Source: Candidatus Heimdallarchaeota archaeon (GTDB lineage Archaea; Asgardarchaeota; Heimdallarchaeia; JABLTI01). From it: a stretch of 32,000 nt of DNA. The DNA lies in contig JAUWKS010000011.1 in assembly GCA_030614005.1 (NCBI GenBank), positions 30,001 through 62,000 on the forward strand. The letters are read 5' to 3'. The translations under genes were made by a program, and so were the position numbers. Numbering within the stretch: position 1 is the stretch's first letter; the number at the start of each line of letters is the position of its first letter. The notes beneath the pieces are model-generated. The model ran no database searches and was not told the origin of the DNA. It was given only the letters and a program-made list of their open reading frames with translations. This document shows positions 11,477 to 12,373 of the stretch, piece by piece.

Positions 11477-11785
11477 TCATCTATTCACAAGGTAATAATA
11501 GAACCACTTAATGTTCTTAAAATAATTATGAATAGTTTCTTTTATTGAAATTTCAATTGAATTATTGCAACTTGAAGAGCAAGAATCGCTACAAGATTCA
11601 CTACATGACTCACCACAAGAAGTGCCACAACTTGTACAACATCCTTGAATTGCACCAGTTATTGCAAGCACAACTAAAACAATAATTGTAACTACAACTA
11701 CAATTGGTAAAATAATAGCAAAGATAATTATGAGAATTCTTTTCTTTCGCTTCTTTTTTAATTCTGGATTTAAATCTTCAGGCAT
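11477..11785 (-). CDS. Cys-rich single-pass membrane protein, paralogue B (~102 aa)
   Basis: Likely start is ATG 11785 (MPEDLNPELKKKRKKR) rather than TTG 11827. Basic patch, long hydrophobic helix, CCTSCGTSCGESCSESCSDSCSSSC, then a conserved aromatic tail. Confidence 0.75.
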   Translation of the reverse strand: MPEDLNPELKKKRKKRILIIIFAIILPIVVVVTIIVLVVLAITGAIQGCCTSCGTSCGESCSESCSDSCSSSCNNSIEISIKETIHNYFKNIKWFYYYLVNR

Positions 11786-11875
11786 TTTTTTTACCCTAAT
11801 AATAACTAAAGAGAATGAAAGCGCCAATTATTAAAAAAGTTTTACTAACGATAGTAAACAAATCTGAAAGGGATT

Positions 11876-12373
11876 TTAGAATCTAAAAATCCCTAATAAA
11901 TAACTAAAAATCCATTTTACAAGTTTCAGTTGCGCATTAATTGTTTCTTTTAGAGATATTGTTGCAATGCTATTGTTACAATCACAGGTGCAATTATCAC
12001 ATGAACTTTGACAAGCATTATCACAACTATTTGAACAGCTTTCAGAACAGCTGTCACCACATGAGTTACAACAGTTCTCACCACATGAGGTACAACAGCT
12101 TTCCATCATACCAATAGCTGCTAATACTATAATTACGACAACTCCAACAACAAGAAGTATAGGTAAAATGATTGCAAAAATGATAATTAACCATATTTTC
12201 CTGCGTTTTTTCTTCTTCATTAGATCTTCGCTTTCGATAATTTCGCTTTCTCCACCAAATCCTTGGTGTTCTATTGGTGGGGGAGTGAACTGTTCCTCTG
12301 AGGTATCTGGTAATTTCTCCTCAGTATCATCAAAAGGATTATCAAATTGATCTTCTTTAGACATTTTTTGCAA
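11876..12373 (-). CDS. Cys-rich single-pass membrane protein, paralogue A (162-165 aa)
   Basis: Acidic N-terminus, KKKKRRK, ~30-aa hydrophobic helix, 14 Cys in 40 aa, and a tail (NNSI..IS[LI]KETI..KW..Y) shared with paralogue B. Alternative start ATG 12364. Confidence 0.8.
   Translation of the reverse strand: MQKMSKEDQFDNPFDDTEEKLPDTSEEQFTPPPIEHQGFGGESEIIESEDLMKKKKRRKIWLIIIFAIILPILLVVGVVVIIVLAAIGMMESCCTSCGENCCNSCGDSCSESCSNSCDNACQSSCDNCTCDCNNSIATISLKETINAQLKLVKWIFSYLLGIFRF

What the first reader, a model, noticed from the sequence alone, without database searches (positions are those of the whole stretch)
11477..12373. Tandem membrane-anchored 'Cys-ladder' proteins with strict CxxxC periodicity
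Seen: paralogue A has 14 Cys in 40 aa with nine at exact i+4 spacing; paralogue B has 8 Cys in 25 aa with seven at i+4. Both lie directly after a basic patch + long TM helix and end in a shared NNSI..ISxKETI..KW..Y tail. A 12-bp DNA periodicity explains the length difference (unit expansion/contraction). The positive-inside rule puts the ladder outside the cell. Established: CxxxC/CxxSC runs occur in ranthipeptide (SCIFF) cores and Cys clusters in metallothioneins, but those are soluble. No radical-SAM gene is in this window. Inference: an undescribed family of surface metal-binding, disulfide-zippered or post-translationally modified membrane proteins with a tunable repeat number.
Basis: partly seen in the sequence, partly recalled or inferred. 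Interest (0 to 1): 0.7.

Follow-up and report, generated by a model that had tools for sequence, protein, structure and literature searches.

The report
Cysteine-ladder partners of a DUF2085-like protein
Two neighbouring genes of a Heimdall-group Asgard archaeon encode small membrane-anchored proteins with a cysteine at every fourth residue; the genes are real and conserved, always lie beside (or are fused to) one uncharacterised Cys/His-rich membrane protein, and probably form a metal-binding membrane unit of unknown role.

Summary
Protein A (162 aa) has 14 Cys in 40 residues, nine in an i+4 chain. Protein B (102 aa) has 8 Cys in 25 residues, seven in a chain. Both show 12/24-bp DNA periodicity and share an amphipathic tail.

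They belong to a small family found only in Heimdall-class Asgard genomes (26 of 300 Asgard genomes searched). All Cys are kept while about a third of the other codons change. Ladder length changes in 4-residue units between species, not between near-identical strains.

Main new result: in 18 of 20 ladder loci a DUF2085-like four-helix membrane protein with an invariant HH…CxGC motif lies directly adjacent, in two different gene arrangements. In Hodarchaeales the ladder is fused to the N-terminus of such a protein. HerA and GNAT are neighbours in one family only.

The proteins score below threshold against the described CXXX-repeat radical-SAM target family (TIGR04117). The genome holds none of that system's maturase genes above cut-off.

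Best guess (about 0.4): a metallothionein/Csp-like thiolate array acting as an accessory part of the DUF2085-like protein. No function has been tested.

The scan noted this same stretch before, from other windows.

The parts
11876..12364 (-). Cys-ladder protein A (long paralogue), 162 aa plus stop
   Evidence: ORF and translation. Orthologues at 98-34% identity share the same architecture.
12221..12364 (-). A: acidic, low-complexity N-terminal tail (aa 1-48)
   Evidence: Read from the sequence. Length is variable but the acidic character is kept in the alignments. AF2 pLDDT is about 50.
12104..12217 (-). A: Lys/Arg patch (K50-K56) plus 31-aa hydrophobic anchor (I57-M87) with conserved central L-P and G
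   Evidence: K51-R54, I60 and P68 are invariant in alignment A1. AF2 models a helix with pLDDT 75-95. The segment length lies in the top 3-4% of hydrophobic runs in this genome.
11978..12097 (-). A: Cys ladder C90-C129 (14 Cys in 40 aa; i+4 chain of 9)
   Evidence: TRF period 12/24 arrays at 12033-12100. All 14 Cys are kept against 53-56 non-synonymous changes in two orthologues.
11879..11977 (-). A: conserved C-terminal tail with an amphipathic helix (aa 130-162; W151 invariant)
   Evidence: Alignments. AF2 helix 138-161, pLDDT about 80. Hydrophobic moment 0.46.
11477..11785 (-). Cys-ladder protein B (short paralogue), 102 aa plus stop
   Evidence: Short paralogues sit in the same position in L003, L004, L005, L042, L069 and L071.
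11567..11641 (-). B: Cys ladder C49-C73 (8 Cys in 25 aa; i+4 chain of 7)
   Evidence: TRF period 12 array at 11580-11621.
11648..11758 (-). B: Lys/Arg patch (K10-R16) plus 30-aa hydrophobic anchor (I17-I46)
12491..13204 (-). DUF2085-like four-helix membrane protein (234-237 aa). Invariant residues: H57 H58 P59 C61 H67 C77 G79 C80 H122 C189 C192 C201. Proposed partner of the ladders.
   Evidence: PF09858 scores 18.5 bits, below the cut-off of 25. Alignment A3. AF2 pLDDT 85. Directly adjacent in 18 of 20 ladder loci. Tree. Fused forms. Complex prediction gives weak support.
12409..12452 (.). Imperfect 17-nt inverted repeat between the DUF2085-like stop and gene A. A TATA-like TTTATAAA lies 33 nt before the ATG of A.
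   Evidence: Function not tested.

Best explanation
Genes A and B are tandem paralogues of a family found, in the genomes searched, only in the Heimdall class of Asgard archaea.

Each protein has five parts: an acidic N-tail, a Lys/Arg patch, an unusually long (about 31 aa) hydrophobic anchor, a Cys-every-fourth-residue array with small polar or acidic spacers (x1 = S/G/A, x2 = N/D/E, x3 = S/A), and a conserved amphipathic C-terminal helix.

They are accessory subunits of the neighbouring DUF2085-like four-helix membrane protein. That protein's invariant HH...C-x-G-C motif and C-terminal CxxC...C cluster face the cytoplasm. In Hodarchaeales the same kind of ladder is fused to the N-terminus of a DUF2085-like protein, which then stands alone as a gene.

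Most likely the ladder is a metallothionein- or Csp-like thiolate array. It would bind and buffer soft metal ions, or hold a metal/Fe-S cluster, at the membrane beside the partner's Cys/His site. The number of 4-residue units would set its capacity.

Shown: the family, the constraint on Cys, the unit-wise indels, and the gene linkage and fusion. Inferred: the physical complex, the side of the membrane, and metal binding.
For: Family and constraint:
- 8 word-index hits and 78 profile hits, of which about 35 share the full architecture.
- All 14 Cys are kept while 53-56 of 162 codons change non-synonymously. One to four Cys codons per comparison switch between TGT and TGC.
- Ladder composition resembles metallothionein: 35% Cys plus S/N/D/E/G/A, with no aromatic residues in the window's clade.

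Linkage to the DUF2085-like gene:
- It is directly adjacent in 18 of 20 ladder loci; the other two loci end at contig breaks.
- The genes are co-directional in the window's family but convergent, with touching 3' ends and otherwise different neighbours, in a second family.
- Genomes of that second family also carry a ladder-free paralogue. Ladder-linked copies fall on one side of a branch of the DUF2085-like tree (1 change, support 68/78, 0 of 500 shuffles as low).

Fusion:
- About 25 cluster representatives (266-340 aa, Hodarchaeales and others) carry an N-terminal ladder of 13-26 Cys. It ends in the same [ST]C.C-G/N-S motif and is followed by two TM helices and the HHP...CxGC core.
- Ladder-free relatives of the same subfamily also exist.
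- The fused genes have no common neighbours.

Complex prediction of the DUF2085-like protein with A(45-162): weak support. The score was 0.57 and the best of 3 controls 0.00. The mark was reached by 58 of 80 solved complexes and 2 of 110 mismatched pairs. At 0.60 or under it was reached by only 7 of those 80 solved complexes and by both mismatches that passed. The runs agree in at least 85% of contacts, and the partner's pLDDT is at least 68.

Analogy: Csp proteins bind many Cu(I) ions through Cys-lined helical bundles (PMC9484137). One ladder subfamily has heptad-like 3/4 Cys spacing.
Against: - No metal-handling gene is a consistent neighbour.
- There is no sequence match to metallothionein or Csp families.
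- AF2 is unsure about the ladder itself (pLDDT 46-55).
- The spacers (S, G, N, D) are poor helix formers, so a Csp-like helical bundle is not assured.
- Topology is unresolved. The positive-inside rule with a single span puts the window's ladders outside, whereas the fusions put them inside.
- DUF2085-like proteins are common without ladders (178 of 300 Asgard genomes), so the ladder is not needed for their core activity.
- The complex score is in the weak band.
- Nothing here measures metal binding.
Confidence: 0.4

Rival explanations
1. The ladders are ribosomal precursors or targets of a radical SAM/SPASM maturase, as proposed for the bacterial CXXX-repeat peptides (TIGR04117). The Cys would be converted to thioether or other cross-links.
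For: - TIGR04117 is the only curated family hit, at 30.0 and 28.3 bits, covering both anchor and ladder.
- The bacterial system also has tandem paralogous ladder genes (L077).
- The genome has one SPASM enzyme, of family TIGR04084 (366 bits), whose second-best match is the PapB ranthipeptide maturase. A distant DUF2085-like paralogue lies about 1.1 kb from it.
Against: - The scores are below the cut-off of 50, while bacterial controls pass.
- There is no hit to the TIGR04114 repeat.
- TIGR04115, TIGR04119 and TIGR04116 are not found above cut-off in the genome, which is 90% complete.
- There is no radical SAM gene on the contig.
- The TIGR04084 gene is not near the ladder, is found in Sulfolobus (which lacks ladders), and was not detected in ladder-bearing G258.
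- Its closeness to a DUF2085-like paralogue does not hold outside the genus.
- The conserved partner is a membrane protein, not an rSAM enzyme.
Confidence: 0.1
2. The ladder is a 'cysteine string' that is S-acylated or otherwise lipidated at the membrane, and the DUF2085-like protein is the transferase. This would be a functional analogue of DHHC enzymes and their Cys-string substrates.
For: - The Cys cluster lies directly next to a membrane anchor.
- The partner is a polytopic membrane protein with an invariant HH(P).C / CxGC Cys/His cluster at the cytoplasmic membrane face.
- In the fusions, enzyme-like and substrate-like parts sit in one chain, on the same side by TM parity.
- With i+4 spacing, a helix would present its thiols along one face.
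Against: - There is no Pfam DHHC hit.
- No solved-structure match stands out: the best are generic four-helix pieces of MFS transporters, Z 8.5 or less.
- The fused forms lack the Cys after HHP.
- DUF2085 is widespread in bacteria and in Asgard genomes without ladders.
- Protein S-acylation of this kind is not established in archaea (own knowledge).
Confidence: 0.1
3. The ladder is a redox module: a chain of thiol/disulfide pairs or Fe-S ligands that passes electrons or reducing equivalents to or from the DUF2085-like protein.
For: - Dense, strictly conserved Cys.
- The partner has conserved Cys/His, plus one invariant His (H122) inside a TM helix.
- The organism comes from anoxic cold-seep and marine sediments.
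Against: - There is no ferredoxin-type CxxCxxCxxxCP spacing.
- There is no DsbB, VKOR or CcdA similarity in Pfam or fold searches.
- All conserved Cys/His of the partner lie on one (cytoplasmic) side, so no trans-membrane relay is evident.
- No redox enzyme is a consistent neighbour.
Confidence: 0.12
4. One reading: an extracellular, surface-exposed ladder that zips molecules together by disulfides or captures metals outside the cell, independent of neighbouring genes.
For: - The KKKKRRK patch lies on the N-terminal flank of the only hydrophobic segment, so the positive-inside rule places the C-terminal ladder outside if the segment spans the membrane once.
- The amphipathic tail could lie on the outer leaflet.
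Against: - Fused relatives put the ladder at an N-terminus with no signal peptide, two TM helices before the strongly basic HHP loop. That is the cytoplasmic side.
- The anchor has a median length of 31 aa against about 20 aa for hydrophobic runs in this genome, with a conserved central Pro/Gly. This is compatible with a re-entrant hairpin.
- The partner has almost no extracellular surface; its outer loops are 3-8 aa.
- Linkage to the DUF2085-like gene argues against an independent role.
Confidence: 0.1

Closest known systems
CXXX-repeat peptide system of bacteria (NCBIfam TIGR04117 Syntroph_Cxxx / TIGR04114 repeat, with maturase TIGR04119/TIGR04115 and TIGR04116)
   Same: Small proteins with basic residues, one hydrophobic N-terminal segment and then Cys at every fourth residue. 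They occur as tandem paralogues (L077). It is the only curated family that the window's proteins hit.
   Different: - The archaeal proteins score 26-34 bits against a cut-off of 50.
- They have a Lys/Arg patch instead of a twin-arginine-like RRxFFK motif.
- They carry an acidic N-tail and a conserved amphipathic C-terminal helix.
- They lack the maturase genes and are tied to a DUF2085-like membrane protein instead.
- The bacterial family is itself defined by gene context only. I know of no experimental work, and a literature search found none.
Metallothioneins and copper storage proteins (Csp1/Csp3)
   Same: Very high Cys content, with S/N/D/E/G spacers and no aromatic residues in the window's clade. 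Csps use Cys spaced along helices to line a bundle core and bind many Cu(I) ions (PMC9484137). One ladder subfamily has heptad-like 3/4 spacing.
   Different: There is no sequence match. The ladder proteins are membrane-anchored and have a strict 4-residue period. The ladder's fold is not predicted with confidence. Metal binding is untested.
DUF2085 (Pfam PF09858) predicted membrane proteins, for the partner gene
   Same: A Cys motif ahead of the first TM helix and a four-helix core. Weak HMM hits of 16-19 bits, and predicted-structure similarity to a DUF2085-bearing cluster (TM 0.58 by the match).
   Different: The scores are below Pfam's cut-off of 25. The Asgard clade adds an N-terminal amphipathic helix, an HHP.C motif, a C-terminal CxxC...C cluster and a long basic helix. 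The function of DUF2085 is unknown; three papers mention it only in passing.
Eukaryotic cysteine-string / DHHC S-acylation pairs (own knowledge)
   Same: A Cys cluster next to a membrane anchor, together with a polytopic membrane protein that bears a cytoplasmic Cys/His-rich motif containing HH.
   Different: There is no detectable sequence or fold relationship. The resemblance is architectural only.

Membership tests
TIGR04117 (Cys-Xaa-Xaa-Xaa repeat radical SAM target protein) | HMM score at or above the curated cut-off (50 bits) | tested here: not met
   A scores 30.0 bits and B 28.3 bits. Relatives P0031 and P0023 score 26.0 and 34.4. Bacterial controls P0042, P0068 and P0046 score 72.9, 73.7 and 51.5.
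TIGR04117 (Cys-Xaa-Xaa-Xaa repeat radical SAM target protein) | Cys at every fourth residue over a long run | tested here: met
   Chains of 9 and 7.
TIGR04117 (Cys-Xaa-Xaa-Xaa repeat radical SAM target protein) | Presence of the cognate maturase and accessory genes (TIGR04115, TIGR04119, TIGR04116), normally adjacent | tested here: not met
   In the own genome (90% complete) the best scores are 35 bits against a cut-off of 350, 27 bits against 150, and no hit. All of these matches fall on the generic SPASM gene on contig C16. There is no radical SAM gene on contig C68. The canonical arrangement was seen in L077.
TIGR04114 (18-residue Cys-rich repeat of rSAM targets) | HMM hit at or above 20 bits | tested here: not met
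   No hit at E up to 1 for A or B. Controls P0042 and P0067 score 27.0 and 23.4. The Pfam counterpart PF27846 is not in the Pfam copy used here, since the control P0042 does not hit it.
Metallothionein / Csp (DUF326) families | Match to a Pfam or NCBIfam model of these families | tested here: not met
   No such family at E up to 10 (Pfam) or up to 1 (NCBIfam).
Metallothionein / Csp (DUF326) families | Binding of multiple soft metal ions by thiolates | not testable with these tools
   Needs purified protein and metal analysis.
DUF2085 (PF09858), for the partner protein | Pfam gathering score (25 bits) | tested here: not met
   18.5 bits for the window's protein. Asgard paralogues score 18.8 and 16.4.
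DUF2085 (PF09858), for the partner protein | Shared fold with DUF2085 members | tested here: inconclusive
   An Atlas cluster with 40% DUF2085 members gives TM 0.43 by query and 0.58 by match. The best hypothetical archaeal clusters give 0.71 and 0.67. No solved structure is available.
DHHC palmitoyltransferase (PF01529), for the partner protein | DHHC-CRD sequence model or DHHC20-like fold | tested here: inconclusive
   No Pfam hit at E up to 0.1. DHHC structures are not among the listed Foldseek or VIA rows, which does not exclude a relationship.
SCIFF / ranthipeptide precursors | Precursor family model and an adjacent rSAM/SPASM maturase | tested here: not met
   No SCIFF-type family in the NCBIfam scan. 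The only SPASM enzyme is TIGR04084, on another contig.

The most novel reading that the evidence does not exclude
The DUF2085-like protein is a membrane-embedded enzyme that modifies thiols (S-acylation, prenylation or a similar lipidation), and the ladder is its cysteine-string substrate. The pair, fused in Hodarchaeales (the archaea closest to eukaryotes), would then be an archaeal counterpart of the eukaryotic DHHC / cysteine-string logic. It would produce a multiply lipidated helix that anchors to or shapes membranes.
Probability: 0.08. Interest if true: 0.85.

Novelty: new variant of a known kind. Interest (0 to 1): 0.6.

Why it matters
- It gives a first functional handle on DUF2085-like membrane proteins, which are widespread in bacteria and archaea and have no known role. 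A lineage-specific Cys-ladder module has been attached to them as a neighbouring gene in two different arrangements, and as a fused domain in a third lineage.
- It shows that Cys-every-fourth arrays are not confined to radical-SAM peptide systems.
- The organisms are Heimdall-group Asgard archaea, including Hodarchaeales. Any membrane-associated Cys-string machinery there bears on how eukaryote-like membrane biology arose.
- If the ladder proves to be a metal store, it would be a membrane-tethered metallothionein with a repeat number that evolves stepwise.
- All of this is inference from sequence. The practical value now is a well-defined two- or three-gene unit that can be expressed and tested.

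Tried and rejected
- HerA-like ATPase (9657-11378) and GNAT (8729-9523) as parts of the system: rejected. They follow the ladders only in the window's own family, where a wider block (PolX, the 79-aa gene, GH38) is also syntenic. They are absent next to the ladders of the second family and of the fused genes.
- RNA evidence: no RNA holder listed.
- Repeat-number variation between strains: contigs of four cold-seep or marine-sediment runs (3 studies), at least 95% alike, cover the ladders without indels. No variation was seen at that depth; contigs drop rare variants.
- Protein Atlas feature search with A: no usable hit.
- Structure of the ladder: the AF2 model is low-confidence there, so no fold search was run on it.
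- Fold searches with the partner: nothing above generic helical-bundle level in Foldseek/PDB or VIA wide. Profile-versus-PDB sequence searches with A2 and A3 gave only chance-level hits, for example the basic-patch-plus-TM of syntaxin at E 0.0055.
- Literature: no paper on CXXX-repeat peptides, on DUF2085 function or on such Asgard proteins was found.
- 'Compensation' idea (fused forms lose the partner's C-terminal Cys cluster because the ladder replaces it): dropped, because ladder-free members of the same six-TM subfamily also lack that cluster.
- Link between the single SPASM enzyme and a DUF2085-like paralogue on contig C16: the adjacency holds only within the genus.
- The sigma-70 promoter scan was not used because the organism is an archaeon. 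Only TATA-like words were noted.
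Full report
**What is there**

On the minus strand the window carries, in this order:
- a 234-237-aa membrane protein (12491-13204);
- gene A (11876-12364, 162 aa);
- gene B (11477-11785, 102 aa);
- a HerA-like ATPase (9657-11378);
- a GNAT acetyltransferase (8729-9523).

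A and B align at 43% identity over ladder and tail, with gaps of 4 and 12 residues. A has 14 Cys in 40 residues with nine in an unbroken i+4 chain. B has 8 Cys in 25 residues with seven in a chain.

Shuffling each ladder's own residues reaches those chains 8 and 2 times in 200,000 trials. No other open frame in the 3.6-Mb genome has a chain of 7 or more. Tandem Repeats Finder sees period-12 and period-24 arrays inside both ladders.

**Organism and distribution**

The genome is 33.5% G+C. Near-identical DNA occurs in cold-seep and marine-sediment metagenomes of four studies.

A profile of the family found matches in 26 of 300 Asgard genomes:
- 9 of 10 genomes in the window's family;
- 10 of 22 in one genus of a second family;
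- 5 of 21 in one genus of a third family, where the hits proved to be fused proteins (below);
- one weak partial hit elsewhere.

A search of 1.8 billion representative proteins gave 78 hits, of which about 35 share the whole architecture. The remaining hits fall into two unrelated groups:
- bacterial peptides with a twin-arginine-like motif followed by a ladder;
- a separate family with a signal peptide and a PVYVP C-terminus.

**Constraint and repeat dynamics**

Against two orthologues, 53-56 of 162 codons differ non-synonymously, yet all 14 Cys are kept. One to four of them are kept through TGT/TGC changes. Selection therefore acts on the residue, not on the DNA repeat.

Ladder lengths differ between species by 4, 8 or 12 residues. 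Contigs from four runs of near-identical populations show no indel.

Spacer positions are biased: x1 is S/G/A/N, x2 is N/D/E/S and x3 is S/A. Strict i+4 spacing is not universal. In one metagenomic subfamily the commonest gaps between consecutive Cys are 3 and 4 residues, largely in alternation, which is heptad-like. The second genomic family mixes spacings of 2, 3 and 4. Cys richness is never lost.

**Relation to what is catalogued**

Pfam has nothing. NCBIfam's TIGR04117, the 'Cys-Xaa-Xaa-Xaa repeat radical SAM target protein', is the only relevant hit. It scores 30.0 and 28.3 bits against a cut-off of 50. Bacterial ladder peptides recovered in my own search pass the cut-off.

One of those bacterial peptides sits in the canonical cassette: two tandem ladder peptides, a TIGR04119 maturase (215 bits) and a TIGR04116 protein (82 bits). 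The window's genome (90% complete) has none of TIGR04115, TIGR04119 or TIGR04116 above cut-off. None of its 26 radical SAM genes is on this contig.

Its single SPASM enzyme belongs to the widespread archaeal family TIGR04084 and lies on another contig. That family was also found in Sulfolobus, among the control genomes, and was not detected in one ladder-bearing relative.

So the proteins resemble the CXXX-repeat family in plan but fail its membership tests. I found no paper on that family either.

**The conserved partner**

The upstream gene scores weakly against DUF2085 (18.5 bits, cut-off 25). AF2 models it with confidence (pLDDT 85) as, in order:
- an N-terminal amphipathic helix;
- a small hairpin;
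- four TM helices;
- a long basic C-terminal helix.

Twenty-nine homologues share invariant H57, H58, P59, C61, H67, C77, G79, C80, H122, C189, C192 and C201. Basic residues cluster in the N-terminal part, the loop between the second and third TM helices, and the C-terminal part. Both Cys/His clusters therefore face the cytoplasm, and the outer loops are only 3-8 residues. No solved structure resembles it beyond generic helical bundles. Predicted-structure neighbours are hypothetical proteins, some carrying DUF2085.

Evidence that this gene is tied to the ladders:
- It is directly adjacent in 18 of 20 ladder loci; the other two loci end at contig breaks.
- In the window's family the order is partner, long ladder, short ladder, within a wider syntenic block.
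- In the second family the partner and one or two ladder genes are convergent with touching or overlapping 3' ends. Every other neighbour is different there, and HerA and GNAT are absent.
- Genomes of that second family also carry a ladder-free paralogue, and other genera have orthologues with no ladder nearby.
- On a maximum-likelihood tree the ladder-linked copies occupy one side of a branch (one change, support 68/78, no shuffle as low). This fits one origin of the pairing followed by co-inheritance through a rearrangement. Related genomes are not independent, so the tree is supportive rather than conclusive.

**Fusion**

The weak hits in the third family are proteins of 275-305 aa with the following layout:
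- an N-terminal ladder of 13-17 Cys with chains up to 10, ending in the same [ST]C.C-G/N-S motif as protein A;
- two TM helices;
- a basic loop carrying HSHH(P/S)...GHEF...CTGC;
- four more TM helices.

A database search found about 25 such cluster representatives (up to 26 Cys), several labelled Hodarchaeales, together with shorter relatives that lack the ladder. The fused genes have no recurrent neighbours. Ladder plus DUF2085-like core therefore looks like a self-sufficient unit.

A complex prediction of the window's partner with A(45-162) gave weak support. The score was 0.57 and the best of 3 controls 0.00. The mark was reached by 58 of 80 solved complexes and 2 of 110 mismatched pairs. 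At 0.60 or under it was reached by only 7 of the 80 solved complexes and by both mismatches that passed. The runs agree in at least 85% of contacts, and the partner's pLDDT is at least 68. With the prior raised by linkage and fusion, I take a physical association as likely (about 0.75).

**Which side of the membrane**

In the fusions the loops alternate between 0-1 and 2-10 basic residues. The ladder is at an N-terminus without a signal peptide, two helices before the most basic loop. By parity it is cytoplasmic, on the same side as the HH/CxGC motif.

That segment, however, is 27-35 residues long (median 31). This is in the top 3-4% of hydrophobic runs in this genome, whose median is about 20, and the partner's own TM helices are modelled at about 20-26 residues. 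The segment also has a conserved central Leu-Pro and Gly. A re-entrant hairpin that leaves both ends in the cytoplasm is therefore possible. I cannot settle this here and regard the outward assignment as unsafe.

**Mechanism**

What is shown:
- a constrained Cys array whose length evolves in 4-residue units;
- a membrane anchor;
- an amphipathic tail (AF2 helix at pLDDT about 80, hydrophobic moment about 0.46);
- genetic coupling to a Cys/His-bearing membrane protein.

What is inferred: the array's chemistry. Its composition is that of metallothioneins. Helix-borne Cys arrays that line bundles and hold many Cu(I) ions are known from the Csp proteins (PMC9484137). The heptad-like subfamily fits a helical, core-lining arrangement.

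I therefore favour a thiolate metal-binding or metal-buffering module serving the partner's Cys/His site (about 0.4). The rivals are radical-SAM modification, lipidation by the partner, a redox relay, and an independent extracellular zipper. Each keeps roughly 0.1. They are separable by mass spectrometry, metal analysis and topology mapping.

**Novelty and score**

Cys-every-fourth peptides are a catalogued but unstudied kind. This archaeal family is a distinct variant with a new anchor-ladder-tail plan. Its partner is also new: a DUF2085-like membrane protein instead of a radical SAM maturase, confirmed by a gene fusion in Hodarchaeales.

The finding is real and gives a testable unit, but the function remains open. 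Interest is 0.6.

Noticed in passing
L026, L027, L029, L031, L032 (Heimdall family f4, genus g7); proteins P0124-P0148: Proteins of 266-340 aa in which an N-terminal CxxxC ladder (13-26 Cys) is fused to a six-TM DUF2085-like core with the motif HSHH(P/S)...GHEF...CTGC. Several are labelled Hodarchaeales. Ladder-free relatives of 198-231 aa also exist.
   Followed up: yes
window 9657-11378 (-) and 8729-9523 (-): A stand-alone HerA-like ATPase (DUF87; sub-threshold hits to HerA and CedD models) and a PF12746 GNAT follow the ladder genes. The ATPase is 80-84% identical across the genus, far more conserved than the ladders. The pair is absent next to ladders in the second family.
   Followed up: partly
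window 13376-13615 (+): A 79-aa protein with no family hit, divergent from the DUF2085-like gene, is conserved at 65-73% identity in the same position in every locus of the window's family.
   Followed up: no
window 12409-12452: An imperfect 17-nt inverted repeat (TAACTGCTAATTGTTAA / TTAACAATTAATAATTA, 10 nt apart) lies between the partner's stop and a TATA-like word 33 nt before gene A. It could be a terminator or a regulator site.
   Followed up: no
G000 contig C16, 9274-12315 (locus L054): The genome's only SPASM radical SAM gene (TIGR04084 family, 366 bits) lies about 1.1 kb from a distant 272-aa DUF2085-like paralogue, with a CofD-like gene between them. The arrangement recurs in two genomes of the same genus but not in two other families.
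   Followed up: partly
proteins P0038, P0041, P0043-P0045, P0048, P0051, P0085: An unrelated small-protein family picked up by the ladder profile. It has a signal peptide, an SFGGGLPSSA motif, an acidic stretch, one TM helix, a Cys/Ser-rich stretch and a C-terminal P(V/I)Y(V/I)P. Origin and function were not examined.
   Followed up: no
proteins P0009-P0011, P0013-P0015, P0019, P0020: A metagenomic subfamily of the ladder proteins in which the Cys spacing alternates between 3 and 4 residues (heptad-like) and Phe appears among the spacers. The contigs are too short to see neighbours.
   Followed up: partly
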